Positions 1,373-60,005 of a stretch of DNA of 64,000 nt are shown here, in pieces. The stretch lies in contig OZ360224.1 of assembly GCA_977017645.1 (NCBI GenBank), positions 86,676,001-86,740,000 of the forward strand, given 5' to 3'. Numbering within the stretch: the first letter of the stretch is position 1; each line of letters opens with the position of its first letter. This stretch comes from Torpedo marmorata. Lineage: Eukaryota. A program made the position numbers and the translations under genes. The notes below the pieces were generated by a model. That model saw nothing but the letters and a program-made list of their open reading frames with translations, was not told the DNA's origin and did no database searches.

Positions 1373-1580
1373 CAACATTTAGGAGCAGAAGTAGGTCCAA
1401 GATGGCCCGAGTCTGCTCCGCGTTCTAAACATGAGCTGATCCATCCATCCACCCACTCCCCAGCACCCTTGAAAAGTAAACACGAAAATCTGTAGACACC
1501 GTAATAATGTAGTAAAAAACACAAAAGCTGGAGAACTCAGCAGGTCAAACAGTGTCTTTTATGTAGCAAAGGTAGAAATA

Positions 1581-1621
1581 CATAACCGACGTTTCGGGCT
1601 TGAGCCCTTCATCAAAGTATG
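1581..1621 (-). ncRNA. Minimal hammerhead ribozyme in inverted pLTR
   Basis: Exact reverse complement of 4713-4753. Confidence 0.75.
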
Positions 1622-2145
1622 AGAAAATGCCGGCAGGCGTCCGAACAAAGGAGTGAGGGGGGAAGGGAGGTGGCAAAGGCAGGAGATGATAGGTGGAGAA
1701 AGGAGGGAGGGGACAGCAGCAAAGAGGGGGAGGAGGGATGGCTGGGTGGGTGGAAAAAAACAGGTGAGGGGGGAGGGGGGAGAGAGAACAACAAACAGGT
1801 TAGTGGAAAGCAGAAAAGTCAATGTTAATGCCATCTGGCTGGAGAGTGCCGAGACGGAATATGAGATGTTGTTCCTCCAATTTGCGGGTAGTCTGGGTGG
1901 GATAGTACATGAGGCCATGGACAGACATGTGAGCGTGGGAGTGTGACCCAGAATTGAAATGGTTGGCTACTGGGAGGTCGCTGCTGCGGCGGACGGAGAG
2001 GAGGTGCTCAGCAAAGCGGTCTCCCAAGCTCCGACCGGTCTCTCCAATGTAGAGAAAGCCACAAAGGGAGCACCGGATGCAGTAGATAAGTCCTTTGGAT
2101 GTACAAGTGAAGTGTAGTTTCACTTGGAAGGCCTGTTTGGGGCCA

Positions 2146-4536
2146 GACCTCATCCCTTCCCGTCCCTCCATCCCCCCCCTCTCTCTGGCTACCCTCCCCA
2201 CCCCCCTCTCCCACCCTCCTACCTCCCCTACCCCCCACCTCCCCCCTCCGACTCCCTCCAACCTCCCCCACCCTCCACCTCCCCCCTCTGACCCCCCCAA
2301 CCCTCCCCCTCCCCCTAACACCCTCCACGACACCGATCCCCACTCTAACCCCTGCTTGGTTTTTACCATCCCCTCCGACCTTCCCCTCTCTGAGACGGAG
2401 CGCTCCGTCCTCAGTAGAGGCCTCACCTTCGTCCCCCTCCGCCCACACCTCAACGAGTTCCGCACACGCCATGATGCTGAACTCTTCTTCCATCGCCTCC
2501 GCCTCCGTGCTCACTTCCATGACCGTGATTCTCCACCCCCCACCCTAGACCCTTTCTCCCGCTTCAAGCCTTCTTCCTCTTCCTGGACACCCCGCCCGGG
2601 CCAGCTGCCCGCTCTGGACCTTTTTATTTCCAACTGCCGCCGAGACATCAACCGTCTCAACTTCACCACCCCCCTCTCGTATTCCAACCTCACTTCCTCA
2701 GAACGCTCTGCCCTCCACTCTCTCCGCAACAATCCCAACCTCACCATCAAACCCGCAGACAAGGGCGGTGCGGTTGTGGTCTGGCGCACTGACCTCTACC
2801 TTGCCGAGGCCAGTCGACAACTCTCAGACACCTCCTCCTACCTACCCCTCTCACAGGACCCCACCACAACACATCAAGCCACTGTCTCCAACACCATCTC
2901 CGACCTCATCACCTACGGTCACCTCCCCTCCACGGCCACCAACCTCATTCTCCCCCACCCCCGCACTGCCCGTTTCTACCTACTACCCAAGATACACAAA
3001 CCCAACCATCCGGGCAGACCCATTGTTTCTGCCTGCTCCTGCCCCACCGAACTAGTTTCATCTTACCTTGACTCCATCTTTTCTCCCCTGGTCCAATCCC
3101 TCCCCACCTACATCCGCGACACCTCACATGCCCTCCATCTCCTCAATGACTTCAGATTCCCTGAACCGGACCGCATCATCTTCACCATGGATGTCCAATC
3201 CCTTTATACCTCTATCCCCCACACAGAAGGTCTGAAAGCACTTCGCTTCTTCCTGGACCAAAGACCCGACCAGTCACCCTCTACTACCACCCTCCTCCGC
3301 CTGGCAGAACTTGTCCTCACTCTCAATAACTTCTCCTTCAACTCATCCCACTTCCTCCAAATCAAAGGAGTAGCCATGGGTACCCGCATGGGTCCCAGCT
3401 ACGCCTGCCTGTTTGTGGGCTTTGTGGAGCAATCCATGCTGCAAGCCTACACAGGCAAGACCCCTCATCTCTTCCTCCGGTATATCGACGACTACATCGG
3501 GGCTGCCTCATGCACCCACGATGAGCTTGTCAACTTCATCCACTTCGCATCCAACTTTCACCACGATCTCAAACTCACCTGGTCCATCTCCGATAACACT
3601 CTCCCCTTCCTGGATCTCGCTGTCTCCATCTCGGGAGACAAGCTTTCCACCGACATTTACTACAAACCCTCCAACTCCCACAACTATCTGGACTACACAT
3701 CCTCACACCCTGTCCCCTGCAAGGACTCCATCCCCTTCTCTCAATTTCTCCGCCTCCGCCGCATCTGTTCCCAAGATGAGGTGTTCCACTCCAGATCTTC
3801 TGAAATGTCTGCCTTTTTCCACAAACGTGGCTTCCCTTCCACCACCATCAACTCAGCCCTCACCCGCATCTCCTCCATTTCCCGCTCATCTGCCCTGGCC
3901 CCCTCTGCCCCCAGACGCAATAAACATAGAGTACCCCTCATCCTCACCTACCACCCCACCAGCCTCCGCGTCCAACACATTATCCGCCGGAATTTCCGGC
4001 ACTTGCTGCAGGATCCCACCACCAGACACATTTTTCCTTCTCCTCCCCTCTCGGCCTTCCGCAGGGACCGCTCCCTCCGCGATTCACTCGTGCACTCGTC
4101 CCTCCCCACCCATCGCACCCCCGGCACCTTCCCCTGTGCCCGCAGTAGGTGCAACACCTGCGCCCACACCTCCCCCCTCACCACAGTCCAGGGCCCCAAA
4201 CAGGCCTTCCAAGTGAAACTACACTTCACTTGTACATCCAAAGGACTTATCTACTGCATCCGGTGCTCCCTTTGTGGCTTTCTCTACATTGGAGAGACCG
4301 GTCGGAGATTGGGAGACCGCTTTGCTGAGCACCTCCTCTCCGTCCGCCGCAGCAGCGACCTCCCAGTAGCCAACCATTTCAATTCTGGGTCACACTCCCA
4401 CGCTCACATGTCTGTCCATGGCCTCATGTACTATCCCACCCAGACTACCCGCAAATTGGAAGAACAACATCTCATATTCCGTCTCGGCACTCTCCAGCCA
4501 GATGGCATTAACATTGACTTTTCTGCTTTCCACTAA
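2146..4536 (+). CDS. Penelope RT plus GIY-YIG endonuclease ORF (open, 5'-truncated)
   Basis: ADKG, LPKIHK, GRPIVS, GVAMG, RYIDD and FLD motifs; Cys-rich linker CARSRCNTC; GLIY...YIGETG endonuclease. No ATG upstream of the RT core. Confidence 0.9.
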   Translation, partial: DLIPSRPSIPPLSLATLPTPLSHPPTSPTPHLPPPTPSNLPHPPPPPSDPPNPPPPPNTLHDTDPHSNPCLVFTIPSDLPLSETERSVLSRGLTFVPLRPHLNEFRTRHDAELFFHRLRLRAHFHDRDSPPPTLDPFSRFKPSSSSWTPRPGQLPALDLFISNCRRDINRLNFTTPLSYSNLTSSERSALHSLRNNPNLTIKPADKGGAVVVWRTDLYLAEASRQLSDTSSYLPLSQDPTTTHQATVSNTISDLITYGHLPSTATNLILPHPRTARFYLLPKIHKPNHPGRPIVSACSCPTELVSSYLDSIFSPLVQSLPTYIRDTSHALHLLNDFRFPEPDRIIFTMDVQSLYTSIPHTEGLKALRFFLDQRPDQSPSTTTLLRLAELVLTLNNFSFNSSHFLQIKGVAMGTRMGPSYACLFVGFVEQSMLQAYTGKTPHLFLRYIDDYIGAASCTHDELVNFIHFASNFHHDLKLTWSISDNTLPFLDLAVSISGDKLSTDIYYKPSNSHNYLDYTSSHPVPCKDSIPFSQFLRLRRICSQDEVFHSRSSEMSAFFHKRGFPSTTINSALTRISSISRSSALAPSAPRRNKHRVPLILTYHPTSLRVQHIIRRNFRHLLQDPTTRHIFPSPPLSAFRRDRSLRDSLVHSSLPTHRTPGTFPCARSRCNTCAHTSPLTTVQGPKQAFQVKLHFTCTSKGLIYCIRCSLCGFLYIGETGRRLGDRFAEHLLSVRRSSDLPVANHFNSGSHSHAHMSVHGLMYYPTQTTRKLEEQHLIFRLGTLQPDGINIDFSAFH

Positions 4537-4712
4537 ACCTGCTTGTCGTTCCCTTCCCCTCCCCCCTCACCTGTTTTTCTCCACCTACCTAGCCATCCCT
4601 CCTCCCCCTCTTTGCTGCTGTCCCCTCCCACCTTTCTCCACCTATCATCTCCTGCCTTTGCCATCCCCCTTCCCCCCTCACTCCTTTGTTCGGACGCCTG
4701 CCGGCATTTTCT

Positions 4713-4753
4713 CATACTTTGATGAAGGGCTCAAGCCCGAAACGTCGGTTATG
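4713..4753 (+). ncRNA. Minimal type I hammerhead ribozyme (U3 variant) in Penelope pLTR
   Basis: CATACT-TTGATGA-A-GGGC(TCAA)GCCC-GAAA-CGTC-GGTTATG: core boxes, stem II, palindromic ACGT stem III and bulged stem I. Confidence 0.75.
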
Positions 4754-4984
4754 TATTTCTACCTTTGCTACATAAAAGACACTGTTTGACCTGCTGAGTT
4801 CTCCAGCTTTTGTGTTTTTTACCCCAGCACCCTTGATTCCCTGACTCATCAAATACCTGTCAATCTCTGCATTAAATACACCCAACGACCTCGCTTCCAC
4901 AGCTGGTAACCTTGTGCATAACTCCTGGACCCCTTCAGCTCAGTGATCTTCCGAGAGGGACCACATTCGCCATCAACCTCCAGA

Positions 4985-7522: not shown

Positions 7523-7588
7523 CATTCATTAAGGAATGTCTTGGTGTTCTCTTTAATCCTACTTGTCGAGGATATTATGTCTTTCTAA

Positions 7589-10352: not shown

Positions 10353-13300
10353 CACAAAAGTGCTGGAGAAACTCAGCAGGTCACAGAGCATCCATATGAA
10401 GTAAAAGGCAATTAACATTTTTCAGGCATTGGGAATTGGGAAAAACAGGTAGATGCCTGAATGAAAAGGTGGAGCGAGAGGAGAAAGTAAGGGAGGTAGC
10501 CGTGGGTACTCGTATGAGTCCCACCTATGCCTGTCTTTTTGTTGGATATGTAGAGCAATCCATGCTGCAAGCCTACAGAGGCAAGGCTCTTCAACTCTTC
10601 CTCCGTACATTAATGCTCTTCAACTCTTCCTCTGTACATTAATGCTGCCTCCTGCACCCATGATAAGCTCATCAACTGTCCACTTTGCTGCCAACTTTCA
10701 CCTTGACCTCAAATTCATTTGGTCTATATCTGGCAACTCTCTTTCCTTTCTTGATCTTGCTATCTCCATCTTGCGAGACAAACTATCTGTAAACATCTTC
10801 TATAAACCCTCTAATTCCCATGGTTACCCTTCCCACCCTGTCTCCTATAAGGATTGTATTCCTTTCTCTCAATTCCTTCATCTCCGCTGCATCTGCTCCC
10901 AGGATGAGACCTTCCATTCTAGGATATCTTAGATGTCCTTCTTCAGAACATGTGGCTTCCCCTTTATTATTTTCCCAGACATAACAAGGACAGGGTTCCC
11001 CTTGTCCTCTCCTACCACTCCACCAGCCTCCGCATCCAACATATTATTCTTCGCAATTTCTGCCACCTACAATGGGATCCTACCACCAGACGCATTTTAT
11101 CCCTCCTCTCTTCACTTTCCTTAGGGATCGCTCCCTTCGTGACTCCCTCATGCACTCAACCCTTCTCACCAATTGCCACCTTGGTACCGACCCCAGTGAC
11201 TGCAAAAAGTGGTACAGTGGCACTTGTATCTCTTCCCTCACCACTTTTTGGAGCCCCAAGCAGTCTTTTCAAGTGAAGAAATACCACTTATGCATCTGTA
11301 GAAGTGAGGAGAGTGTTAACCAAGGTTAACCCACGGAAAGCTGCTGGTCCAGATAACATCCCCGGCAGAGTGCTCAGGTGATGTGCGGCCCAGCTGGCTG
11401 ATGTTCTCACCGACATCTTTAACATCTCCCTGAGCAGTGTCGTGGTTCCAACGTGCTTCAAAGCCGCTACCATCATCCCTGTGCCGAAGAAGTCAACGGT
11501 GTCCTGCCTCAATGACTACCGCCCTGTCGCACTCACATCTACTGTCATGAAGTGCTTCGAGAGGCTCGTCATGGGGCACATCAAGCTTCTGCTGCCCCCC
11601 TCACTGGACCCCCTGCAGTTCGCAAATAGATCAAACCGCTCTACGGATGATGCCATCATTACCACCCTCCACCTAGCCCTCACCCACCTGGAAAATAAAG
11701 ACGCGTATGTTCGAATGCTGTTTATTGACTTCAGTTCGGCATTCAACACGATCGTACCTCAGTACCTGATAGGGAAGTTGAGCGGGCTGGGCCTAAACAA
11801 CACCCTCTGTAATTGGATTCTAGACTTCCTGACGGGAAGACCTCAGGCAGTCCGGATTGGAAACAGCACTTCTAAGGTCATTACATTGAGCACGGGGGCT
11901 CCCCAGGGCTGTGTGCTTAGTCCATTGCTGTTCACCCTGCTGACTCATGACTGTGCAGCAAAACACAGCTCGAATCACATCATCAAGTTCGCTGATGATA
12001 AGACCATGGTGGGCCTTATCAGCAAGAACGATGAGTCAGCATACAAAGATGAGGTGCAGTCGCTAATGGAATGGTGCAGAGCAACAACCTGCATCTGAAT
12101 GTTAACAAAACAAAAGAGTTGGTTGTCGACTTCAGAAGGGCCCAGGGGGATCATTCTCCATTGACCATGGACGGCTCTACCGTTGAGGTCGTAAAGAGTA
12201 CCAAGTTTCTTGGAGTGCACTTGGCGGAGAGTCTCAGCTGGTCCCTCAACACCAGTTCCATAGTCAAGAAAGCCCAGCAGCGTCTACTTCCTGCGAAGGC
12301 TGAGGAAAGTTCCTCTTCCACCCCCTATTCTTACTACATTCTACAGGGGATGTATTGAGAGTATTCTGAGCAATTGCATCACCGCTTGGTTTGGAAACTG
12401 TACCATCTCGGACCGAAAGACCCTGCAGAGGATAGTGAGGTCAGCGGAGAAAATTATTGGTGTCTCTCTCCCCACCATGATGGACATCTACAACACACGA
12501 TGCATGAGGAAGGCTAATAACATTGTGAAGGACTTCTCACACCCCTTTGGTAAACTTTTTTCCCTTTTGCCATCTGGAAGGAGGTACCGAAGCACTCGGG
12601 CTCGTACGTTCAGACTGTGCAACAGTTTTTTTCCCCCAAGCCATCAGGCTCCTCAATTCCTAGATATATATGTGTATTAGGATGTTATAGTTTTTTTATT
12701 GTATTATGATATTTATGTACATCTGCCCATGGTCCTGGAGAAACGCTATCTCGTCTTACTGTGTATATGGTAATGAATGACAAATAAAGGTAACTTGACT
12801 TGATTTACTGCATACGGTGCTCCCGATGCGGACTCCTCTCCATCGGGGAGGCTGGACTCAGACTGGGAGATCATTTTGTTGAGCACCTGTGCTCTGTCTG
12901 CTGCAACAGTAAGGACCTCCCAGTGGCCAACCATTTTAATTCTACACACCATTGCCACACTGACAAGGCTGTCCATGGCCTCGTGTACTGCCAAATTGCG
13001 GCCACCTACAAATTTGAGGAACAACACGTTATTTACAGTCTCGGCAGTCTCCAACCAGATGCCATCAAAATCGACTTTCCCAATTTCTGTTAACCCCCTT
13101 CCCTCTCTCTTTCCCTCCCCCTCTGTCTCTTTCCCTCATGCTCCCAACCCCCTTCCCTTTTTATCATAGAGCTGCCCTCTTCCCCCTATCGCTTCTCATC
13201 TTCTTTCTCTTCTCCCCTCTTACCTGTTAGCCTGTGTTCCTCCCCCTTCCACTCTTCCCTCTCCCACCTCTTTTACAGGCATCTCCCTGTTTTTCCAGAT

Positions 13301-13438
13301 TCCTGACTTCAGGCTCAGGCCTGAAATGTTGATTGCCTTTTACTTCTTTTGGATGCTGTGTGACCTGCTGAGTTTCTCCAGCACTTTTGTGTATTGCACT
13401 AGACCCCACCATCTGCAGATTTTCTTGTTTAACTCAAC
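10353..13438 (+). mobile_element. Older Penelope-like element with inverted 5' pLTR, interrupted by Rex1/Babar
   Basis: Inverted pLTR at 10353-10495, RT remnants at 10495-11295, GIY-YIG resuming at 12802, pLTR to 13438. Degenerate TSD GG(G/A)GTT(A/G)TACTA within a CR1 endonuclease region. Confidence 0.82.
11298..12801 (+). mobile_element. Rex1/Babar LINE, 5'-truncated, nested in Penelope
   Basis: ORF 11442..12098 ([15 protein letters not shown]); near-identical to 8835-9957; ACTTGACTTGA tail. Confidence 0.9.
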
Positions 13439-14950: not shown

Positions 14951-17900
14951 TTTTTAAAAAATATTTTATTTAAAATTTTAAATCACAAAATACATAGAAT
15001 AAAATATAAAATTATCAAAAATACTTGTGATACATTTTCACCCACCCTCCCCAACCCTCCCAACCCCACTAATCTAATAAAATATAAAAAAGAAAGAAAT
15101 AGAGAAGAAAAAGATAAAGTAAGGAGAATGTCAATCTAATAAATACATCTATAAACTAATTCTATTATGGAGGTTAGGTAGCCAGTAGATCCAATATCCA
15201 GAGATCTTCAAATCCTTAATCCAACAGCTTTCATATAAGGGCTCCATATTTTCAAAAGAAATGATATTTATTCCGTAAGTTATAAGTAATTTTTTTCAAG
15301 TGGTATACATGAACGAAGTTCTGCATGCCATCTTTCTAGCCCTAAATCAACATCAGATTTCCAAGTAATAGCAATGCATTTCTTTGAAACAGCTAAAGCA
15401 ATTCGCAAAAATTCTATTTGATACATATTTAATTTCATCTTAATACTAAATTTTTTAATATCTCCAAACAAAAATATCATAGGATCCATCGGAAATATAA
15501 TCTTAAATACTTTATCTAAATTTTTTTTAACTTTAAACCAAAAATCATAGACTTTTGGACAAAACCATGTAGAATGTACAAAAGAACCTTCCTCTTTATT
15601 ACATCTGAAACATAAACCTGATAATATCGGGTTAAATTTCTTTAATTTTTAGGTGTTAAATATAATTGATGAAAAAAATTGTATTGTACTAATCTATATC
15701 TAACATTAATAATCTTCGTCATACTTAATTTACATAATTCCTTCCAATGATTTTCATCTATTATTACATTCAAATCTAATTCCCATTTTAATCTTGATTT
15801 ATGAATTCCTACTTTAGGAATTTTCCTCTGAAACAATTTATACATTTGAGAAATAAATTTATTTACATCTTCTATAGTAACTAATAATTCTAATTCATTC
15901 TGTCTTGGTAAAATCAAAGCATGACCTAATTTCTCAATCAAAAAAGCTCTAATTTGATAATAAGCAAAAAGTGTATTATCTAATATATTAAATTTATCTT
16001 TCATTCTTTGAAAAGTAATAAATTTCCCAGCTTCAAAACAATCATTTATTTTCTTAATTCCTTTTTGAAACCAAATTTTAAATAGTTGATTATTAATAGT
16101 AAATGGAATAAGTCCATTTTGATATAAAGGCATCCTTGAAGAAATCAATCCTCTTCCTCCTATTTCCTTATCCGTCTTATTCCATATTTCTAACAAATGT
16201 TTAAGAATAGGAGAATTTTTCTTTCTTGTTGATATTAATTTAGAATCCCATTTATAAATAACTTCTTATTTAGAATCTTCTATATTATTTAATTCTATTT
16301 TAATCCAAGCAGAAGATTTAGTTGAATCAAAAAATTCATTAACAAATTTTAATTGAACTGCTTTATAATAATTTTGGAAATTAGGAAGTTGTAAACCACC
16401 CATTTCATAATTCCAAGTTAATTTTTCCATACCTACTCTTGCTAACTTTCCTTTCCATAAAAATTTTCTAATAATTGAATTTAAATCTTTGAAAAATTTT
16501 TGAGGAATTTCATAAGGAATTGATTGAAAAAGATATTGAATTCTTGGAAAAACATTCATTTTAATACAATTTACTCTTCCCATTAAAGTTATAGGTAAAT
16601 CTTTCCAATTTTCTAAATCCTTTTTTATTTTCACAAATAATGGTAAATAATTTAATTTATATAAATTAGCCAATTTTGTGTCAATCCTTATTCCCAAATA
16701 TTTAATTCCTTCCTTTGCCCATTTAAATTGTGTAATTTCTTTACATTTACTATAATCCCCTTGTGATAATGCCATAATTTCACTTTTATCAGAATTAATT
16801 TTGTATCCTGATATTTTCCCATATTCTCTCAATAACACAGACAGTTGTACTAAAGATGTAGTAGATTTTGTCATATATATCAATACATCATCTGCAAATA
16901 AACTAATTTTATGTTCTTCCGTTCCAACTTTAATACCAACTATTTTAGGATCTTTTCTAACTCATTCCGCCAAAGGTTCTATTGCCAAAATAAATAACGC
17001 TGGTGACAAAGGACATCCTTGTCTAGTAGATCGAGTCAAAGGAAATCTTGAAGAAATCTGTCCATTTGTAACCACTTTAGCAGATGGTTCTTTAAATATA
17101 GTTTTAATCCAATTAATAAACGTAATTCCAAAACCAAATTTCTCCAACACCTTAAATAAAAAATTCCACTCTAGTCTATCAAAAGCCTTTTCGGCATCTA
17201 ACATTAATACTAATGGTAAATCTTCTTTCTTTTTTTGTAAATTAATTAAGCTAATTAATCTAGCTATATTATCTTTTGAATATCTATTCTTAATAAAACC
17301 AGCTTGGTCTACATGAATTAAATCTGGTAAATAATTGGCCATCCTATTAGCTAAAATTTTTGCCATTATCTTGTAATCTACATTTAACAATGAAATAGGT
17401 CTATATGACTCAGTTTTCAATACATCTCTATTTTTTTTGGTATAACTGTAATTATTGCATTTTAAAATGTATCCGGTAGTGAATGGGTTTCCGTAATTTG
17501 ATTTAATACATCCATATACGGAGGTATCAATAAGTCTTTAAACTCTTTATAAAATTCTGCTGGAAATCCATCATCACCTGGAGATTTACCACTCGTTAAA
17601 GAAGTAAGAACTTCATTAACTTCCCTCATTGAGAAAGGTAAATCTAAAGCTTCTCTACTTTGAATATATAATTTAGGTAATGTAATCTTAGATAAAAATC
17701 TATTAAGTTTAGAATCATCTTGATCAATCTGAGATTTATATAAATTTAAATAATAATCCTTAAAAGAATCATTTATTTCTCGAGGTTTGTAAGTTATTTC
17801 CCTAGAATTCTTTTTCTTAATAGCATTTATAGTTCTAGAAGTTTGATCTTTTTTTAATTGCCACGCCAAAACTTTATGTGCTCTTTCCCCTAATTCATAA

Positions 17901-20139
17901 TACCTTTGTTTAGTTCTTTCAATTAATTTTTCCATTTTATGTTTGTAATAAATTATAATGTAATTTTTTTCCCAACTAAATTATTCCTTTTTTGAATTGA
18001 TCTATTTTTTTGTAAGTCTTTTTCCAAACACTCAATTTCCTTCTCTAAATTATTAACCTCTCTAAGATAATCCTTCTTAATTTTTGCTGAATAATTTATT
18101 ATCTGACCTCTTAAATAAGCTTTTAAAGCTTCCCATATAATAAATTTATTATTAGTAGAATTGGAATTTATTTGTAAAAATTCCTGAATTTCCCTTCTCA
18201 TATAATCACAAAAATCTTTTTAATAAAGAAGAATTAAATCTCCAGCTATATACAGTTTTTTCTTTTTCCAGAATTATACAAGATATTAATAAAGGTGAAT
18301 GATCAGAAATTATTCTCGCTTTATAAATTGCTTGCGTTATTCTATCTTGAACCTGTGAAGATAACAAAAATAAATCTATTCTAGAATATGAATCATGTCT
18401 AAAAGAATAAAATGAATAATCTTTTTCTCTAGGATTCAGTTTCCTCCAAATATCTATTAAATTTAAATCTTTCATCAAAGTAAGAACTTTTTTAGCAATT
18501 TTAGTTCTAACAAGTGATCTTGAAGTTTTATCCATTATTGGATCTAAACAACAGTTGAAATCTCCACCAACTAAAATATTCTCATTAGCTTCTGACAAGT
18601 GTAAAAAAGAATCTTGAATAAACTGTTCATCATCTACATTTGGAACATACAAATTCATAAGTGTCCAAAATTCTGAATATATCTGACAATGAACAATAAC
18701 ATATCTACCTGCCACATCTGTAACTATCGATTGTATATTAAAAGGTAACTTTTTATTAATTAATATAACTACCCCTCTTGCTTTAGAGTTAAATGAAGAA
18801 GCCACCACTTGACCAACCCATTCTCTTTAATTTTTGGTGTTCCGAATCTACCAAATGCGTCTCTTGTAAAAAAGCTATATCTACATTCAACTTATTAATA
18901 TATGCTAAAGTTCTCTTTCTTTTAATCGGATTGTTGAGCCCATTTATATTAATACTTACTACATTTATTTTTTTGCTATCCATCATTGCCAAGCTTTATC
19001 AAATCTCTTTCGATCAAATCCACCAGCTCTCCCCTCCAAGATTGTAAACTATTTGACATCTCCTTGAAAAAAACAATAAAAAGAAATAAAAGAAAGAAGA
19101 AAAAACAAAACCCCAATGAATAAAATACTGGTGAAATTACTCCAGTATTACCCCCCTCCATTGTTCGAGAAGTGGCTCTCGCCACTAAAGTGGTGTATGG
19201 CTAGGAAGAAGAGAGACAAAAAGTCCACCTCCCCCCAACAGATTTTACAAAACATTTATAATCGTAACTTCATTTAATTGACCCAATGTCTACATTGTCT
19301 TGATCTTCTTCAGTCTGAACATCGATTTCCTCGTCTTTTCTTGAAATACCTGGCAAAGAAACTTGTAATGATGAAATCTCTTGACCATATTGATAACCCA
19401 TCAAATCTTGATTTCTCCTCAAAGTAGGAAGAGCTTGTGCATGCAGTGGCGCTTGTTGGGGATCCATAAAAGGGATAGAACGATTATCTCCAGTTTGAAT
19501 CTTCAAAATCGCAGGGTATTTAAAAGAGAACTTGTACCCTTTTTGCCAGAGAAGCGATTTTGTTGAGTTAAATTCTTTCCGACTGTTAACCACCGCAGCA
19601 GACAGATCAGGATAAAAAAGGACTCTATTATCATTAACCATCAGTGGAGATTTTTCAATTTTCGCTTTATGAATAGCTGCTCTTAATATTTTTTCTCTAT
19701 CTTGAAATCGGAGACATTTAATCAAGACAGGACGTGATCTTTGACCCATATACCGGTCTCGTGGCCCAATTCTATGTGCTCTTTCTGTTGTGTATTTCGG
19801 GTGTAAGCTTACAATAGCACACCGAGACGACAGTCTTCATTCATCATTTATTACTAAACTAAAATGGCATTCAACGTTACCCCTTATATAGTACGTATGA
19901 CGTCATTACGTCATACGTTATACGTTACATATACAACACTCTTCCCCCCCACGAAATATAGATTGTTATTATGATTATATGATTATGATTATATGATTAT
20001 ATATTCCCCGATTACTGGTAAACTATGGTAACTACTGGAATATAGCGGGGAAACTACAATTACAAACAAAATCATGCAAGTAAAACTAGAACTACTAACT
20101 GTTAGTATCATACTGATCATCACTAAAGTGAAAAATCAT

Positions 20140-23337: not shown

Positions 23338-23370
23338 TATCTCCGCTACCTGTGTTTTTTGTTCTGTTTT

Positions 23371-26231: not shown

Positions 26232-27712
26232 GAGAGTAAAACACGAAAGTCTACAGACACCATGATTGAAGTAAAAACACAATGCTGGAGAAACTCAGCT
26301 GGTCAAACAGTGTACTTCATATAGTGTACTTAACATCGACTTATCTGGTTTTTTTAGTTTCCATCTGGGCAGTCTCCAACCGGGTGGCATTAACATTGAT
26401 CTCTGGTTTCTGCTAGCCTACTCCCCGTTCTCCCTCTCTTCCCCATCCCTCTGTCTTCAGCTGTCCACCCCCTTCCCTCTCCATTCACAGAGCCTTCCCC
26501 CCTCCCCTTGTTTGCTGGTGTGCCCTCCCTCCCATATCTACTTATTACTTCCTGCCTGTGGGACGTGCTCCTCCCCATGCCCCTCCCCACCCCCTCCTCA
26601 TCGCCACCGTTTTGTTCGGAGGTCTGCCTATATTTTGCTCATCCCAGGGTTGTGTGCTCAGCCCGCTCCTGTTTACGCTACTGACCCACAACTGCATTGC
26701 CAGATCCAGCTCCAACAGTGTCATCAAGTTTTCAGATGACACAACAGTAGTTGGCCTCATCAGCAACAACGATGAGTTGCACTACAAAGAAGAGGTGGAA
26801 AATCTCGTGAAATGGTGCGAGAATAACAACCTGAGTCTCACCGTGAACAAGACAAAGGAGATGATCGTGGACTTCAGGAGGACCAGGAACGACCACCCTC
26901 CACTACACATCAACAACTCTGTAGCAGAGAGAGTGGAGAGCACAAAGTTCCTTGAAGTTCACTTAACTAGTGACCTATTGTGGACACTCAACATCTCCTC
27001 ACTTGTCAGGAAGAGGCAATAGCGACTGCACTTCCTGAGAAGACTGAAGCGGGCAAGGCTACTGGCCACCATTACGTCAACCTTCTATAGGAGCTCTATC
27101 GAGAGAGTCCTGGCCGGCTGCATCACAGTGTGGTACGGTTGCTGCAGAGAAATGGATCGGAGGTCAATCCACAGGACCATAAGAGTGGCAGAGAGTATCA
27201 CTGGAATCTCCCTCCCTCCCCCATCGATGTGATCTACTGGGATCATTGTCTGAAGAGGGCGTGCAAAATCATTGAGGACCCCTTCCACCCTGCACACAGT
27301 CGGGGAAGAGATACAGGAGTATCAGAGCCAGCACCACCAGGCTGAGGAACAGCTTCTTCCCACGGGCAGTGAAAATGCTGAACGACCAAAGGAACTGTGC
27401 TCACTAACCATCTGAGACTCTCGTTTGCACAAAACAATTTTTATTTTTTTATTTTTATAGATATAATGCTTGTCCTGCATATGTATTATTTGTCTGTATG
27501 TGTGTTATGTCTGGTTGTGTGTCTGCATGTTTTTGCACTGAGGACTGGAGAACGCTGTTTCGTCAGGTTGTACTTGTACAATCAGATGACAATAAACTTG
27601 ACTTGATCTCTTGATGAAGGGCTCAAGCCGGAAACGTTGGTTATGTATCTTTATCTTTGCTCTATGAAGTACACTGTTTGACCTTCTGAGTTTCTCAAGC
27701 ATTCTGTTTTTC
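26232..27712 (+). mobile_element. Short Penelope derivative with inverted 5' pLTR, interrupted by Rex1/Babar at the ribozyme
   Basis: Inverted tail at 26232-26330, EN end and pLTR at 26355-26644, HHR and tail resuming at 27608. Confidence 0.78.
26645..27607 (+). mobile_element. Rex1/Babar LINE fragment (second subfamily)
   Basis: [28 protein letters not shown]; ACTTGACTTGA tail. Confidence 0.85.
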
Positions 27713-27745
27713 AATTTAAGATCAATCTGACTAGGTTATTCTCTG

Positions 27746-27838
27746 CAATACACAAAAGTGTTGGAGAAACTCAGCAGGTTACGCAGCATCTATAGGAAGC
27801 ATAGGGTAACTAACGTTTTGGGCCTGAGCCCTTTGTCA
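27746..27838 (-). mobile_element. ~95-bp Penelope-derived mini-element (HHR plus 3' tail)
   Basis: 13-bp direct repeat AGGTTATTCTCTG at 27733-45 and 27839-51. Confidence 0.75.
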
Positions 27839-27912
27839 AGGTTATTCTCTGACTTTTCTCTGTTGTCCTTCAAATTCTTTCCTCATTGAACATTCAGCTC
27901 CATTTTGAAACT

Positions 27913-41816: not shown

Positions 41817-42145
41817 TGGGCATTCTCCAACCAGATGGCATTCACATCGACTTCTCCAGTTTCCGTTAGGTCCCTCCCCTCCCTCTCTCTCTTTCTCTAT
41901 CCCTCTGTCTCCTTTCCTCTCAGTTTTTTCTCTTCTGCCCTCCCACCCATATCTACCTCTTGCTTGTTGACCCTGTGCTCCTCCCCCGCCCCTTCTTCCC
42001 TCCTCTCTCTACCTTTTTCTTCAGGCGCCAGCCTGCTTTCTTCTCATACCTTGACGAGGGCTCAGGCCAGAAATGTTGGTCATATATCTTTGCTTCCTAT
42101 GGATGCTGTGTGACCCGATGAGTTTCTCCAGCACTTTTGAGTATT
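41817..42145 (+). mobile_element. Penelope 3' fragment/pLTR in RPF2 intron 6
   Basis: LQPDGIHIDFS remnant; TTGACGA-GGGCTCAGGCCA-GAAA HHR remnant. Confidence 0.75.
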
Positions 42146-42445: not shown

Positions 42446-43051
42446 GGCCTTCTCTACATCGGAGAGACTGGGCGCAGACTGGGAGATCGCTTCACTGAGC
42501 ACCTTCGCTCTGCATCAGTGACAGGGATCTCCCAGTGGCCAACCATTTCAATTCCGTGCCCCACTCCCATGCTCACATGTCTGTCCATGGCCTCGTACTA
42601 TCCCACCAAGCCCACCCGTAAATTGGAGGAACAACACCTGATTTTCCATCTGGACACTCTCCAGCTGGATGGGATTAACATTGACCTCTGGTTTCTGCTA
42701 ACCTCCTCTCCATTCTCCCTCCCTTCCCTTCCCTTTGTCTTCTTTCCCTTAGCTCTTCACCCCCTTTCCTCTTTATTCACCTAGCCATCCCCCCTCCCCC
42801 TGCTTGTTGCTGTGCCCTCCCTCCCTTCTCCACCTATTACCTCCTGCCTTTGGGACCCTGCTCCTCCCCCCCTTACCTTTTTGTTTGGATGCCTGCCAAC
42901 ATTTTTCCATACCTTGATGAAGGGCTCAAGCCCAAAACGTTGGTTATGTATCTTTATCTTTGCTATATAAAGTACACTGCTTGACATGCTGAGTTTCTCC
43001 AGCATTGTGTTTTTTCTTCAACCACAGTGTCTGCAGACTTTCATGTTTTAC
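42446..43051 (+). mobile_element. Penelope 3' fragment (GIY-YIG plus pLTR) in intron 7
   Basis: LLYIGETGRRLGDRF; TSD TTAGATAT (42438-45 and 43052-59). Confidence 0.85.
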
Positions 43052-43209: not shown

Positions 43210-43356
43210 CCTCACTCTTTTGTTCGGACGCCTGCCGGCATTTTCTCATACTTTGATGAAGAGCTCAAGCCTGAAACGTCAGTTATTTATTTCTACCTTT
43301 GCTACATAAAAGACACTGTTTGACCTGCTGAGTTTCTCCAGCATTTGTGTTTTTTA
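43210..43356 (+). mobile_element. Penelope pLTR 3' fragment with HHR
   Basis: Matches 4678-4821. Confidence 0.82.
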
Positions 43357-51307: not shown

Positions 51308-53146
51308 CAAACCCAATGTGCCTATCCAATGAGCAGACCCATTGTTTCTGCCTGCTCCTGCCCCACCGAACTAGTTTCATCTTACCTTGACTCCATCTTT
51401 TCTCCCCTGGTCCAATCCCTCCCCACCTACATCCGCGACACTTCACATGCCCTCCATCTCCTCAATGACTTCAGATTACCTCAACCGGACCACATCATCT
51501 TCACAATGGATGTCCAATCCCTTTATACCTCTATCCCCCACACAGAAGGTCTGAAAGCACTTCGCTTCTTCCTGGACCAAAGACCCGACCAGTCACCCTC
51601 TACCACCACCCTCCTCTGCCTGGCAGAACTTGTCCTCACTCTCAATAACTTCTCCTTTAACTCATCCCACTTCCTCCAAATCAAAGGAGTAGCCATGGGT
51701 ACCCACATGGGTCCCAGCTACGCCTGGCTGTTTGTGGGCTTTGTGGAGCAATCCATGCTGCAAGCCAACACAGGCAAGACCCCTCATCTCTTCCTCCAGT
51801 ATATCGACAACTATATCGGGGCTGCCTCATGCACCATCGATGAGCTTGTCAACTTCATCCACTTCATGTCCAACTTCCACCCTGATCTCAAACTCACCTG
51901 GTCCATCTCCGATAACACTCTCCCCTTCCTGGATCTCTCTGTCTCCATCTCGGGAGACAAGCTTTCCACTGACATATACTACAAACCCGCCAAATCCCAC
52001 AACTATCTGGACTACACTTCCTCACACCCTGTCCCCTGCAAGGATTCCATCCCCTTCTCTCAATTTCTCCGTCTCTGCCGCATCTGTTCCCAAGATGAGG
52101 TCTTCCAGTTCAGATCTTCTGAAATGTCTGCCTTCTTCCACAAACGTGGCTTCCCCTCCACCACCATCAACTCAGCCCTCACCCGCATCTCCTCCATTTC
52201 CCGCTCATCTGCCCTGGCCCCCTCTGCCCCCAGATGCAACAAACATAGAATCCCCCTCATCCTCACCTACCACTCCACCAGCCTCCGCATCCAACACATT
52301 ATCTGCCGGAATTTCCGGCACTTAATACAGGATCCCACCACCAGACACATTTTTCCTTCTCCTCCCCTCTCGATCTTCCGCAGGGACCGCTCCCTCCGCA
52401 ATTCCCTCGTGCACTCGTCCCTCCCCACCCATCGCACCCCCGGCACCTTCCACTGTGCCCGCAGGAGGTGCAACACTTGCGCCCACACTTCCTCCCTCAC
52501 CACGGTCCGGGGCCCCAAACAGGCCTTTCAAGTGAAGCAACACTTCACTTGTACATCCAGATAACTTATTTACTGCATCCGGTGCTCCCTTTGTGGCATT
52601 CTCTACATCGGAGAGACCGGTCGTAGATTGGGAGATCGCTTCGCTGAGCACCTCCTCTCCGTCCGCAACAAGAGCGACCTCCCAGTAGCCAACCATTTCA
52701 ATTCCAAGTCACACTCCCACACTTACATGTCTGTCCATGGCCTTGTGTACTATCCCACCCAGACTACCTGCAAATTGGAGGAACAACATCTTATTTTCTG
52801 TCTGGGCACTCTCCAGCCAGATGGCATTAACTTTTCTGCTTTCCACTAAACCTGCTCGCCTTTTCCTTCCCATCCCCCCTTACCTGTCCTTCCAGTTTTT
52901 TCCACCCACCCAGCCATCCCTCCTCTCCCTCTTTGCTGCTGTCCCCTCCTTCCTTTCTCCACCTATCATCTCCTGCCTTTGCCATCCCCCCTTTCCCCCC
53001 CTCACTCTTTTGTTTGGACGCTTGCCGGCATTTTCTCATACTTTGATGAAGGGCTCAAGTCCGAAACGTCAGTTATGTATTTCTACTTTTGCTACATAAA
53101 AGATACTGTTTGACCTGCTGAGCTTCTCCAGCATTTGTGTTTTTTA
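51308..53146 (+). mobile_element. Penelope-like element, 5'-truncated, same family as 1473-4821
   Basis: ORF 51299..52564 is nearly identical but has YIDN instead of YIDD and a stop before the EN. TSD CTGTTTG(C/T)TGTGC within a CR1 3' UTR. Confidence 0.92.
53037..53077 (+). ncRNA. Minimal hammerhead ribozyme, sense within RPF2 intron 8
   Basis: CATACT-TTGATGA-A-GGGC(TCAA)GTCC-GAAA-CGTC-AGTTATG; core intact, G-U pair in stem II. Confidence 0.68.
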
Positions 53147-53383
53147 CTGTTTGTTGTGCTGTAATGTTTTATACATGGATAGGATGGGTTGAGAGGTACA
53201 AACACAGGCAGGAAGGACTAGTATGGGCAGGACATTTTGCTCAGCATGGACGAGTTGGGCTGGAGGGCCTGTTTCCACGCTGTATGAATAAGCTGCTAGG
53301 AGGAGCAGTCGAGGCAAGTACAATAGCAATGTTTAAAAGACATTTAACACAGATAGGAAAGGTTTAGAGGGCAAATGGCACTA

Positions 53384-54164
53384 CCGTATTTGATGGCATA
53401 TAAGACCCCCCTTTTTATCCCAAAAAATCGCCTCAAAAACCACCTCAGGTCTTATACGCGAAGGTGATATTTTGGTACCGCAATTTTGGGCACCGAGTGG
53501 AGGCTTCCATCCGCAAGATGGCGACAGGAGGAAAGCGCTCAAACTACTCATCCAGCTTCAAGAAGCCCATGGAGGTGCTTCCGCTCACTTCCCCCGGTAA
53601 GGAGGCTCCTTCCCGCCCGCCCTCTCCCTCCCTCCCGCTCGCTCTTTCCCACAGTGCTTTGAGGGGAGCACTGGGCCTCGATGATCAGGCTTTGTTCGAC
53701 GAGCATGGACCCCCCGAGCAAATTGAATGAGGCGCGGGGGCGGGTGACAGTGAGCGAGCGGCCTGTCAAGCTCAGCTCAACAGGCTGCTCACTCACTGCC
53801 ACCCGCCCCCGCGCCTCATTCAACCTGTTCGGGTGGGCCGTGCGCATCGAACAAAGGCAAGCCTGATCACCAAGGCCCAGCGCTCCCGTCAAAGCAAGCG
53901 ATCGATCGTCTGCTCCCCGCAACGGTGGGCCTGGGCCCTGCCTGTTGTCCTGGCTTCTCTCCCTCACACCCTCGCGTGCCCGCGGGTCCCGGCGTGCCTG
54001 TCAACCAATCGGAGTTTGGACGGTGGGGGTGAAGCAGCCTGAGTCTCGACGTGTTGCTGCTGTGAAGGTAAATACACTAAAACAAATTTTTCCTGAAATC
54101 TAACGCTAAAAATGGGGGGAGAGGTCCCTATATGCCAGTGGATCCTATATGCCATCAAATACGG
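53384..54164 (+). mobile_element. Non-autonomous pogo/Tc2-like DNA transposon
   Basis: 19-bp perfect TIR CCGTATTTGATGGCATATA, TA TSD, transposase N-terminal remnant MATGGKRSNYSSSFK. Confidence 0.85.
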
Positions 54165-56301
54165 TAGTTTAGGTGGACAGCTTGGTGTGCCTGGGCAAGT
54201 TAGGTTGAAGGGCTTGTTTCCATGCTGTAAAACTCTGTGACTGTTGTAACTCTGGAACAAAACCTAATGAGACTTTTTTTCTGGGTGGACAGTTGCTGTT
54301 TTGCCAGGTGGAAATGGGGATTTGGGTTGACTCTGCATAACCCATTGGTTTTGTGGTGATAAACAACATTGCGTACGTACGTGTCTTGAGCTTGCAGGAT
54401 TTGGAACATGCAAACCTGAGGACTGCCAGCAGAGGGCTTTCCCAGCCTTCAAAATATGTTTAAAGGTGCTTGCTTGTGTAACAGGGAACCTGGTCAAACC
54501 TGCACAATGGCCAAAAATGTCAGATGGCGTGTAGAATCCAATTTCACAGCCAATGTCCACAGGCAGTGTAACTTGATTAGATTCAAAAATACCCCTGATG
54601 TCTTGAAACGCTGGTTATGTATCTGCTACATAAAGAACGCTGTGTGACATGCTGAGTTTGTCCAGAACTTTTGTGTATTAGATTCAACTGATAGTTTTCA
54701 ACTAATTCACCACCATTATTCAAACAAAAAGAGAAGTAAAAGAGGGTGATCCTGTACAAACATTGAGTTGCCGTAAATCTTGCACATTCTTCCAATGTTG
54801 CTGCCTTCCCTGCCCCTTTTGCGTTCAAGCCTGAGCTGGAGCCTGCTATAGCAACTGTGTGCACTCTATACAGCAACCCAGCAAGACCAACTTTACTGAC
54901 AACCTTTACTGTTGTTACTCAGATTGGGCAGCGTTTGAAAAGAGTGAAACACCTAGCATCTCAAGTTGATAGCTTACCTGAAACAACTTCTCGTATGCTG
55001 CCAAATCTATTGCCATTTCCAGCCTTGCCCTCTTCTTATTTCACCTTTCCACCATGTGCAGCATTTTGCCTTTGTAACAACATCTCTGAAAGCTGAGTAC
55101 TCCATTTGGAAATTCAGCTCTGACATTTTGAACCAGCAGGTTTCCTAATTTGGAATCTGTCTCAGATTACTGTCATGCTGAAGGTATAGCAGACTGACCT
55201 GAATGCATGTATAACCTCCGTTGTGTGATCAGTCATAAACAAATCCACATCATGAGTCCGAGAGTCATGAAACATGGATAAAGGCTCTTTGGCCTGCCGA
55301 TCACCAAGCACTCACCTGCACTAATCCTGTATTCTCCCCACATTTCCCTCAACTCGCCTAGATTCCACCACTCAACTATACAATTATTTGATTTGGTTAT
55401 TATTGTCACATATGCCAAGATACAGTGAAAAGCTTTCATTTGCATGTCATTCAAAGGCTACCAGTGAGCCTCCACATTCTGATGCCATCTTGCAATAAAA
55501 ATAAAGTACAAAAGGAAAGTAAAGCAAGTTCCTTCAGAGACAGTATGGTCGAGGTTACATTAGAGAAGGTGACACCGCTGCCCCCGAAACCACCATGGCA
55601 AGTTGCCACTGTCTCTACTTGTTCCTGTTGTTCATACACGTTGTCCAGCAGCAGGGAGGCCCTGCAGATGGAGGACCTGAGCAAGAGCCCCCACATTCGC
55701 CTGCCTGTTCTCCATCACAATTCCTCCACCCCTGATCCCAATTCCCAGAAGGCGTCAGTGTCTGCGGCTTGGCGGAGTCTTGGTGCTGAGCCCCAGCTGG
55801 AGCCCGCCTTATCTAGCCTCCCTCACTCCGTTTCGTTCAGCTGCCTTCACTCTGCACCACCCTGGTGGGATTGGCAGCAGCGTTCCTTCAGCTTTGCCCC
55901 ATCTGATCCTGTCTGCAATTGTAGATCACCTCTCCTCATCAGACCTCTAAGACCTGCTGCCTATGATCCACCGTCTTGAATTAGGGCAATTTATAGTCAA
56001 TTATAAATATAATTTGGGGGACGAAAGTAGATCACCTGATGAAACCAAGACAGTTATAGGGAAAACGTGCAAACTTCACACAGTAGCAGAGGACAGTGGA
56101 GTTCTGAGGCAGCAACTTTATCAGCCATTCCACTGAACCACTTCTGTGCAGAAATTGAGCTTCTCTCCTGTGCCCAACTGGGGAATGTGTTGTCAACATG
56201 TGTCAGTTACACTTGCTGTAAATTAATTGCTGCAGCAGTATGGTGGGTTGATTAAATTAGTTTTGGCTTTCTTACCCTTCTCATTTGAAGAGCGTTACAA
56301 G

Positions 56302-58386: not shown

Positions 58387-58625
58387 ACAGCACGGTTAGC
58401 GTAGCGGTTAGCGCAACACTATTACAGTGCCAGTGACACGGGTTTGAATCCGGCGCTGTCTGTAAGGAGTTTGTACATTCTCCCCGTGTCTGCGTGGGTT
58501 TCCTCCAGGTGCTCTGGTTTCCTCCCACCCTTCAAAACGTATTGGTGTTTGAAGGGTAGGTTATTTGGGTGGCCACGGGCTGGTGAGCCAGAAGGGCCTG
58601 TTACCATGCTGTATGTTGAAATTTA
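58387..58625 (+). mobile_element. tRNA-derived V-SINE (HE1-like)
   Basis: A box TAGCGTAGCGG, B box GGTTTGAATCC, V-domain GGAGTTTG..TTCTCCCCGTGTCTGCGTGGGTTTCC, CR1-like tail. Confidence 0.8.
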
Positions 58626-59469
58626 AAAATATTTATGGATAGGAGGGGCTAGGAGGGATATGGACTAATTGCCGTCAAGTGAGATTCGCCCAGAATGCCA
58701 GCTTGGTCGGTATGGACAAATGGGCCAAAGGGAGTGTTCTATGCTGCATGGCTCTATAATTATACTAGTAGACTGTGTTCTCTACAGTTCAGAAGAATGA
58801 GAGGTGATCTTATTGAAACATTCAAATGTTTTATGGCACTACTGTGAAACTGAGGAATCTAAAGACTGGGTCACAGGAGAAGTGGGTAGGCCACTTTGGA
58901 CTGCATTGAGGAGAAATATCTTCACTTGAGGCTGGTCAATCCTCAAATGTCCCAAAGGCCAGCTAGTTGGTAGGTTGACTGGCTACTGTGAATGTAGGTG
59001 GCTGGTGGGAAGAATCAGCGAGGAGTTGGGGGTATGAGTGAGAGAATAAGTTACAGGAAATAATTGAGGGAATGGTATTGCTGAGAGCTGGCATCGACTC
59101 GTCAGGCTGAATGACATAATACAAGGAAGAATAAAAGATTGAGATTCTCAACCCTGGATCAAGATGGAGGTCAACATATTTCATAATATTAAGAGATACG
59201 GGGATAGTGCAGGAAAATGGTGCAGAGATAGAAGATCAAACATGATCTTGATAGATGGTGGAGCAAGCTTGAAGGGCTGGATGACATACCCATGTTCCTA
59301 TTTCGTATTCTTATGAAAGGGCCCACCTGAATGTAGCAGAGGATTTCCTGCTGATTTGCAGGGAAGATTTCGTCCAAGGGTTTGACACTCGGTTGGAACA
59401 ATTTGGGCATTTGTGCTAATCTAACATGCATCGAGCACGAAAGCATTAATGAGGACCTTGACTAATAAA

Positions 59470-60005
59470 ACAGCAGAATGGCACATCTGTCAGAGCTCCT
59501 GCCTCCCAGTTCCAACAACCCAGGTTCAATCCTGACCTCTAGTGCTGCCTGGAGCTTGCATGTGTTCCTGCAATCTTATGGGTTTCCTTTCAGTGCTCTG
59601 TTTTCTCATGCATCCCAAAGACATGTGGGTTGGTAAATTCCATTTCACAAATGTGCTGGAGAAACTTAGCAGGTCACGCAGCATCCATAGGAATTAAAGG
59701 ATAACCAACGTTTCATTCAAGATGAAGGGCCCGGGCCCAAAACCTTGGTCACCCTTCACTTCCTATGGACACTGCGTGACCTGCTGAGTTTCTCCAGCAT
59801 CTGCAGACTTTCTTGTTTAACTCCTGGGTTGGTAGGTTGATTGGCATCTGTAAATTGCCCTGAGTGTATAGGTTAGTGGTAGAATCTGGGAAAATCGATA
59901 GAAATGTGGGGTGAATAAAATGAGATTGTTGTAGGATTAGTGTAAATTGGTGCCTTGTGGTTGGCACATACTCAGTGGGCTGCAGGGCCTGTTTCCATGA
60001 TCTGA
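59470..60005 (+). mobile_element. Older V-SINE, interrupted by a Penelope mini-element
   Basis: B box GGTTCAATCC and a degenerate V-domain; ends about 20 nt before the exon 9 acceptor. Confidence 0.65.
59636..59824. mobile_element. Head-to-head (palindromic) Penelope mini-element
   Basis: Inverted pLTR tail followed by HHR remnant and direct tail; 10-bp TSD TGGGTTGGTA. Confidence 0.8.

What the first reader, a model, noticed from the sequence alone, without database searches (positions are those of the whole stretch)
1473..59824. Penelope family carrying a UUGAUGA-variant minimal hammerhead ribozyme in about ten copies
Seen: a recurring motif CATAC(C/T)-TTGA(T/C)GA-A-GGGC-TCA(A/G)-GCCC-GAAA-CGT(C/T)-(G/A)GTTATG. 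It occurs at 1581(-), 4713, 27611, 27810(-), 42051, 42915, 43253 and 53043, with remnants at ~760(-), ~13305, ~54595 and ~59721. Stem I keeps pairing across copies (C-G, U-G, U-A at the core-proximal pair), and the stem II loop varies while the helix holds. Known: Penelope pLTRs carry minimal type I hammerheads with a palindromic stem III that cleave as dimers. Unusual: the better-preserved copies of both subfamilies have U instead of C3, giving U3-G8 rather than the canonical C3-G8 pair, so the variant appears to have been propagated by active elements. Inference: an attenuated or dimer-gated ribozyme variant.
Basis: partly seen in the sequence, partly recalled or inferred. Interest (0 to 1): 0.72.

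Follow-up and report, generated by a model that had tools for sequence, protein, structure and literature searches.

The report
Wobble-core hammerhead in Penelope retrotransposons
A very abundant jumping gene in this genome carries a known small self-cutting RNA motif with one core letter changed in tens of thousands of copies; the rest of the core has stayed fixed, so it likely still cuts, but slowly, and the copies checked run through the cut site, so they were likely made from uncut RNA.

Summary
Real. The motif is the minimal type I hammerhead of a Neptune-type Penelope-like retrotransposon. U3 opposite G8 is the family norm: 94,368 U3 versus 2,157 C3 intact-core copies, and intact 1,158-aa tandem copies carry it. 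Older families have C3; U3 probably came by a one-base insertion that pushed the old C into stem I. Across ten U3 subfamilies 14 core sites show no change while flanks show 1.09 per site and N7 takes all four bases, so the fold is still selected. None of 100 copies ends at the cut site; 5' junctions avoid it and pile up at the first bases of stem I (7 of 129, P about 3e-6), a probable transcription start. Best reading: a slow, probably protein-helped ribozyme at the RNA's 5' end, with uncut RNA as template. Cleavage is untested. U3-G8 is already in print as an unremarked alignment row (Saccoglossus PLE). Earlier scan notes found the same motif elsewhere in this genome. New variant of a known kind.

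The parts
1458..1472 (+). Left copy of a 15-bp target-site duplication
   Evidence: Same 15 bases at 4822-4836
1475..2144 (-). Inverted 3' end of the Penelope-like element (endonuclease end, 3' UTR, hammerhead, long end with tail)
   Evidence: 92.6% to unit positions 3167-3844 of an intact copy
1581..1621 (-). Minimal hammerhead, U3-G8, intact; U3 at 1615
   Evidence: (61.9 bits)
2144..4822 (+). 5'-truncated Penelope-like copy, short end without tail
   Evidence: 96.7% to unit positions 1119-3807
2149..4536 (+). Open frame: RT, CX4CxxC linker, C-terminal GIY-YIG endonuclease; residues 364-1158 of the full protein
   Evidence: Pfam RVT_1 E 2e-6 and GIY-YIG E 9e-4, both under the curated cut-off; 97% to the 1,158-aa ORF of L173; motifs
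4713..4753 (+). Minimal type I hammerhead: stem I 4713-4718 with 4747-4753, U3 4719, G8 4724, extra A 4726, stem II 4727-4738, GAAA 4739-4742, palindromic ACGU 4742-4745, predicted cut after C 4746
   Evidence: numbering as in PMC4209133
4712..4718 (+). Pyrimidine-rich, initiator-like site; probable transcription start at 4714-4715 (inferred)
   Evidence: 5' junctions of genomic copies peak 5-7 bases before U4; initiator consensus recalled, not from a call
4775..4819 (+). Predicted stem-loop just before the first of two fixed 3' ends (about 77 and 112 bases after the cut site); probable reverse-transcription start region
   Evidence: fold -8.2 kcal/mol, z -1.2, weak; inner hairpin block conserved across subfamilies; 3' ends
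4822..4836 (+). Right copy of the target-site duplication
27611..27645 (+). Hammerhead copy, U3, 5' stem I strand missing, stem II decayed
   Evidence: (42.4 bits)
27805..27844 (-). Older U3 copy; A8 and A12 are CpG decay
   Evidence: (41.5 bits)
42045..42084 (+). Older U3 copy, one base lost, decayed
   Evidence: (41.7 bits)
42908..42948 (+). U3 copy with C2.1-G1.1, G12 decayed; at the end of a fragment from 42445
   Evidence: (58 bits)
43247..43287 (+). U3 copy in a 148-bp stub, stem II mutated
   Evidence: (50.6 bits)
51333..53148 (+). Second 5'-truncated copy with broken frame; hammerhead 53037-53077, U3 at 53043
   Evidence: 55.2 bits
743..783 (-). Decayed older U3 remnant
   Evidence: (29.9 bits)
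13297..13337 (+). Decayed remnant of an older C3 family
   Evidence: (27.6 bits)
54605..54677 (+). 3' half only of an older copy
   Evidence: no match
59698..59755 (.). Head-to-head pair of truncated remnants, position 3 lost

Best explanation
The motif is the minimal type I hammerhead in the terminal repeat of a Penelope-like retrotransposon with a Neptune-type linker; it has a U3-G8 wobble instead of C3-G8 and likely works as a slow, probably protein-assisted self-cleaver, so that uncut RNA is what likely gets copied into DNA. Shown: the element (3,849-bp unit, 1,158-aa RT-endonuclease ORF) sits in partial tandems with one hammerhead 150 bases before the start codon and one about 210 bases after the stop; U3 is fixed in all young subfamilies; the rest of the core is invariant while N7 and H17 vary as hammerhead rules allow; copies end at two sites about 77 and 112 bases past the cut site and never at it. 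Inferred: transcription starts at the first bases of stem I, so the upstream hammerhead is the very 5' end of the RNA and cutting would remove a capped leader of about 33 bases; U3 arose by a one-base U insertion that moved the old C3 into stem I; low activity lets most RNA stay whole for translation and reverse transcription, while occasional cutting (as a pair through the ACGU palindrome, or on the element's protein) trims or retires transcripts. Cleavage itself is untested.
For: Counts: U3 94,368 vs C3 2,157; 226 C3 of 60,040 in the main subfamily; U3-A8 only 1,853, background level. Intact ORFs differing at 7-17 of 3,477 bases carry U3; that subfamily has 3,877 exact copies. Random 800 kb plus window: 35 of 35 copies under 5% divergence are U3; of 21 at 10% or more, 8 are C3; oldest family 19 C3 of 26. 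Ten U3 consensuses: 0 changes in 14 core sites, 7 in 6 free sites (N7, H17, loop II), 130 in 119 flank columns; before a CpG correction 12 of 13 vs 44 of 119 invariant, p 1.4e-4. 0 of 100 copies end at the cut site although the pattern ended there. Truncation junctions: 1 of 30 at the cut site by script, at most 2 of 100 within one base by eye (about 9 expected if uniform); 7 of 129 at 5-7 bases before U4 against 12 in the next 60 bases, P about 3e-6. All single mutants of this pair were low in activity in a tested hammerhead (PMC9901934). Anolis element: hammerhead needs the protein, uncut RNA is the template (PMC11167929). Penelope's promoter lies in the pLTR (PMC2377424).
Against: No cleavage data and no raw RNA reads. 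The lack of cut-site junctions also holds for the active C3 hammerhead of Anolis, so it does not measure the effect of U3. Stem II shows no compensatory change. Predicted monomer and dimer minima are inactive hairpins that bury the core, 14-17 kcal/mol better than the active dimer as I modelled it for the two youngest subfamilies. Many copies were fetched with core-containing patterns, so a subfamily without a core could be missed; the subfamily tree was set by hand and edge misalignment inflates the flank rate. The copy tree does not show a single origin of U3 (8 changes, no fewer than shuffles, because C3 back-mutants were sampled on purpose; base unresolved). The start site is inferred only from junctions; an extra G from a cap was not consistent.
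Confidence: 0.55

Rival explanations
1. The U3 motif is catalytically dead; its sequence is kept because it is a binding fold for the RT-endonuclease or overlaps the internal promoter (initiator plus downstream elements) at the DNA level.
For: C3/G8 single mutants are low or inactive (PMC9901934; PMC11167929). Cleavage is not needed for insertion in vitro and Naiad elements thrive without hammerheads (PMC8557442). The probable start lies at the motif's first base; Drosophila Penelope has a downstream promoter element containing ACGT (PMC2377424). Stem II is invariant rather than covarying. The youngest subfamily has also turned G10.1-C11.1 into G-U.
Against: The pattern of variation follows catalytic rules: N7 takes A, U, G and C, H17 only C or U, G8, G12 and ACGU never change in ten consensuses although G12 and ACGU lie in CpGs whose partner bases did change. 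Stem I pairs covary between families.
Confidence: 0.3
2. The motif is about as active as other minimal hammerheads: the upstream C still pairs with G8 with the extra U bulged, or dimer and protein fully make up for the wobble.
For: C3 families lack one base relative to U3 families (6 of 100 listed copies are of the short C3 form), so older U3 subfamilies read C-U-U-G-A. Natural insertions next to C3 still cleave at high Mg2+ (PMC3088659 section 9).
Against: In the three youngest subfamilies that C has become U while its stem I partner stays paired (C-G, U-G, U-A), which fits stem I, not a pair with G8. The saltern insertion variant was 425-fold slower in LiCl.
Confidence: 0.12
3. The hammerhead is an unselected relic that drifted after C3 was lost and hitch-hikes in a successful lineage.
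For: No genomic sign of cutting; CpG transitions fixed in the youngest subfamily.
Against: 0 changes in 14 core sites against about 15 expected at the flank rate; two U3 clades (100/100 each) whose endonuclease regions are only about 70-76% identical in protein share the core.
Confidence: 0.03

Closest known systems
Minimal hammerheads (min-HHR) in pLTRs of metazoan Penelope-like elements (Cervera and De la Pena 2014, PMC4209133; main text parts 1-2 of 4 and supplement parts 1-2 of 3 read)
   Same: Type I layout, extra base between A9 and G10.1, G10.1-C11.1, no loop III, palindromic 15.2-16.2, one copy in each terminal repeat about 3-4 kb apart, thousands of dispersed copies. Fig. S3 lists a PLE-linked Saccoglossus kowalevskii motif with UUGAAGA, that is U3-G8.
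   Different: The paper's text discusses only U3-A8 (Schistosoma); its 56-row alignment has no cartilaginous fish. Here U3-G8 is fixed in about 10^5 copies and ten subfamilies, with C3 ancestors in the same genome.
Poseidon element of Anolis carolinensis (Frangione et al. 2024, PMC11167929; passages and section 3 part 2 read)
   Same: Two reverse-transcription start sites past the hammerhead that define the tail; uncut RNA as template; no ends at the cut site.
   Different: Anolis has C3-G8 and its ORF starts inside stem II; here the ORF starts 150 bases after the cut site, and the protein has the CX2-5CxxC linker that Penelope/Poseidon lack.
Neptune (and Nematis) clades of endonuclease-positive PLEs (Craig et al. 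2021, PMC8557442; passages read)
   Same: RT with DKG motif, CX2-5CxxC linker, C-terminal GIY-YIG, partial tandems, inverted 5'-truncated copy, 30-40-base tail.
   Different: Long proline-rich, repeat-containing N-terminal part; clade placement by tree not tested.
Natural hammerhead core variants (Perreault et al. 2011, PMC3088659, sections 8-9; PMC7151607, passages)
   Same: U3-A8 covariants and saltern variants with insertions next to position 3, one written as U3 with G8.
   Different: Those are rare single examples; the tested one has a two-base insertion and C3.

Membership tests
Endonuclease-positive Penelope-like element | Single ORF with RT and C-terminal GIY-YIG endonuclease | tested here: met
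   Pfam hits below curated cut-offs; 399 relatives with the same domains
Endonuclease-positive Penelope-like element | Partial tandem forming pLTRs, inverted truncated copies, optional 30-40-base tail | tested here: met
Neptune/Nematis clade | CX2-5CxxC linker between RT and endonuclease | tested here: met
   CVRRRCNTC at residues 1026-1034; definition from PMC8557442
Neptune/Nematis clade | Placement in an RT tree with named clade members | not tested
   No named reference sequences fetched
Minimal type I hammerhead of PLEs | Stem I, stem II, GAAA, palindromic minimal stem III, NUH triplet, extra base after A9 | tested here: met
Minimal type I hammerhead of PLEs | Position in both terminal repeats | tested here: met
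   Pairs 3,849 bases apart in L172-L174 and L189, 3,848 in L171
Canonical hammerhead core | Watson-Crick pair at 3-8 (C-G, or U-A) | tested here: not met
   U3-G8 in 94,368 copies; U3-A8 at background
Canonical hammerhead core | U4 G5 A6 G8 A9, G12 A13 A14, A15.1-U16.1 invariant, N7 free | tested here: met
Hammerhead ribozyme | Self-cleavage after H17 | not testable with these tools
   Genomic junctions show no trace of it; no raw RNA reads available
Rfam hammerhead families | Match to an Rfam covariance model | tested here: not met
   No hammerhead family at E<=5

The most novel reading that the evidence does not exclude
U3 is a selected brake. The element's RNA begins at the first base of hammerhead stem I, so every cut decaps its own message; a one-base slip weakened the core, the weakened lineage replaced its C3 relatives and made about 10^5 copies, yet kept every other catalytic base because rare, protein-triggered cutting is still needed. 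The genome then holds a dated natural series (C3 ancestors, U3 intermediates, U3 plus G-U stem II today) for the open question of what Penelope hammerheads are for.
Probability: 0.2. Interest if true: 0.72.

Novelty: new variant of a known kind. Interest (0 to 1): 0.45.

Why it matters
The role of hammerheads in Penelope-like elements is openly unresolved (PMC8557442, PMC11167929). A family that fixed a change expected to cripple catalysis, stayed mobile and still conserves the rest of the core is a ready test of whether cutting, folding or promoter overlap is what is selected. It also shows that descriptor searches that demand C3-G8 or U3-A8, and Rfam, miss about 10^5 motifs in one genome. 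The motif class and the U3-G8 state themselves are not new.

Tried and rejected
DNA search of the own genome with the 161-base repeat gave nothing because common words are skipped. No RNA holder listed; the runs laid are contigs only and cannot show ends. In one search no T-to-C row appears at 4719 in four runs from four coded organisms, and loose ends read ...CATACC before it, but the known variant at 4718 is not listed either, so this is only a weak hint that relatives share U3. A propagated U3-A8 subfamily: rejected; in the family with C7, CG 7, CA 8, TG 4 of 19, like the two other CpGs of the same copies. C3 copies inside the main subfamily as a separate active lineage: rejected; they are back-mutations or truncation junctions. 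Peak of junctions at the cut site: not found. Cap-derived extra G at the start-site junctions: 2 of 3 exact cases, inconsistent in the wider set; not established. Folding energy does not single the motif out (z -0.3 to -1.4). No solved-structure relative of the protein. Searches for U3-G8 or C3U hammerheads in print and for hammerheads in cartilaginous-fish PLEs found no paper that discusses them; Lunse et al. 2017, Przybilski and Hammann 2007, Nelson and Uhlenbeck 2008 and Martick and Scott 2006 were not held, and the first could already report this variant. The source data of PMC9901934 and part 3 of the PMC4209133 supplement were not seen.
Full report
Observation. A covariance model from 21 real copies finds the eight listed copies at 41.5-61.9 bits and three remnants at 24-30 bits; the fourth remnant is a 3' half seen only by a profile HMM. 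Three copies keep the full descriptor. Chance is excluded: 0 in 50 of 50 shuffled windows and 0 for every reversed pattern in the genome. Rfam does not see it. The remnant at 13303 has C3.

The element. Window 1458-4836 is one insertion: a 15-bp target duplication around an inverted 670-bp 3' end with tail and a 2.7-kb 5'-truncated copy. [quoted passage not shown] The window lies in a 6.22-Gb genome. Following the ORF upstream gave full-length units of 3,849 bp with a 1,158-aa ORF in partial tandems; five ORFs differ at 7-17 of 3,477 bases, so the family is young and probably mobile. The protein has the DKG motif and a CX4CxxC linker, which PMC8557442 gives as a mark of Neptune and Nematis. 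The only named vertebrate relatives listed are a bamboo shark protein (70% over 74% of the query) and a turtle protein; the host was not determined. One hammerhead lies about 150 bases before the start codon, the other about 210 after the stop.

How general is U3. The main subfamily's 27-mer has 60,040 exact copies, 226 with C in front; the 30 C loci fetched are back-mutations or junctions. A degenerate pattern gives 94,368 U3 and 2,157 C3; it needs intact CpGs, so it undercounts old families. U3-A8 has 1,853. In 800 kb of evenly spaced stretches plus the window, 73 of 120 profile hits had a readable position 3 (47 dropped): 63 U, 9 C, 1 G; 35 of 35 under 5% divergence are U, 8 of 21 at 10% or more are C. 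The oldest family, with a perfect five-pair stem I, has C3 in 19 of 26. The youngest subfamily, the one with intact ORFs, has U3, G10.1-U11.1 and U2.1-A1.1 (3,877 exact copies).

Origin. Aligned consensuses show C3 families one base shorter than U3 families between stem I and UGA. In 100 listed copies of older families 6 have the short C3 form and two loci the long C3 form (read by eye). A U insertion that moved the old C3 into stem I is the simplest path, not a proven one. A tree of 46 copies on the ORF end and UTR gives two U3 clades at 100/100 but an open base, and does not show one origin: 8 label changes, no fewer than shuffles, since C3 back-mutants were over-sampled on purpose (7 chimeric or deleted rows were dropped and the main cluster thinned).

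Is the core still selected. From 233 of 280 anchored copies I built ten U3 consensuses. Raw: 12 of 13 core columns invariant against 44 of 119 flank columns (p 1.4e-4). The exception, A8 in one old family, is CpG decay and was set to G. On a hand-set tree: 0 changes in 14 core sites, 1 in 8 stem II sites, 7 in 6 free sites, 130 in 119 flank columns. N7 takes A, U, G and C, H17 C or U. This is the pattern of a hammerhead, not of a plain hairpin. Limits: many copies came from core-containing patterns, two subfamilies were partly defined by N7, and edges align poorly. Stem I covaries (3 of 3 pairs), stem II does not (0 of 4).

Footprints of the RNA template. The pattern ends at C17, so copies ending at the cut would be caught: 0 of 100 do; 30 of 30 and 66 of 70 end 72-81 or 108-113 bases further on, the two start sites and tail described for Anolis (PMC11167929). 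Of 1,938 copies broken inside a 34-base span over the motif, 1 of 30 fetched breaks at the cut site and at most 2 of 100 listed within one base (by eye); breaks gather in loop II, often as fold-backs. Upstream, 7 of 129 independent copies begin 5-7 bases before U4 against 12 in the next 60 bases (P about 3e-6; one duplicated locus dropped; 9 of 77 in an overlapping set). I followed this up after note e1-9852052. The site reads like an initiator (consensus recalled) and Penelope's promoter is in the pLTR (PMC2377424). A stall would be expected on the other side of the helix, so run-off at a transcription start is the likelier cause. Such short copies would come from RNA whose upstream hammerhead was uncut.

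Mechanism. Most likely (0.55) a slow, probably protein-assisted ribozyme at the RNA's 5' end. Single changes at this pair were low in activity in a full mutational scan (PMC9901934, passages); minimal motifs cleave weakly even as dimers (PMC4209133); the Anolis motif needs the protein. Predicted minima are inactive hairpins. Rivals: dead but kept as protein site or promoter (0.3), fully active (0.12), neutral relic (0.03).

What is known. PLE minimal hammerheads are known (PMC4209133; review PMC6765202, section 11 part 2). Fig. S3 of that paper has a U3-G8 row from Saccoglossus and U3-A8 rows from Schistosoma; a saltern variant is written with U3 and G8 (PMC7151607; PMC3088659). My searches found no discussion of a fixed U3-G8 family, but four key papers were not held. 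The 2026 preprint on retrozymes (part 1 of 5 and passages), PMC3884650 and PMC6155905 (passages) add nothing on position 3. Earlier scan notes report the same motif in other pieces of this genome and U3-A8 variants in other genomes; they are not independent support.

Verdict. A real feature and a new variant of a known kind. Its value is as a natural test series for the unknown role of Penelope hammerheads. Interest 0.45.

Noticed in passing
window 19784-24490 (-): Gypsy-type LTR retrotransposon with 162-bp LTRs 98.8% identical, gag frame and an open 1,076-aa protease-RT-RNase H-integrase frame; it lies in or beside a broken L1-type LINE at about 15280-19836 (-).
   Followed up: partly
window 37500-40133 (-): A second, broken Gypsy-like element with RT and integrase-like pieces.
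   Followed up: no
window 53690-53856: Long GC-rich inverted repeat that draws spurious microRNA matches below Rfam's thresholds.
   Followed up: no
window 4775-4819 and all subfamilies: A hairpin block just before the first 3' end and a palindrome before the second are conserved across C3 and U3 families; likely marks for the two reverse-transcription starts.
   Followed up: partly
window 1475 and 4822; L008/L009: In inverted insertions one arm ends at the long site and the other at the short site.
   Followed up: no
L180, L183, L186 (G000:C2, 8.1-8.5 Mb): Near-identical C3 hammerheads of one family, each followed by a long array with a period of about 23 bases, repeated within a few hundred kb; looks like segmental duplication.
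   Followed up: no
listing; L191-L220: Truncations inside the motif gather in loop II and are often fold-back inversions, a hint that stem II forms in the template or cDNA.
   Followed up: partly
L173:5155-8628: The ORF's N-terminal third holds 19-residue repeats (57-base period) and a long proline-rich tract.
   Followed up: no
G000:C1:25411156-25411368 (listing): Four hammerhead-like units at a 60-base period, with C3 and A8.
   Followed up: no
old family: CpG decay on the sense strand gives CA about twice as often as TG at three sites in 19 copies; small sample.
   Followed up: no
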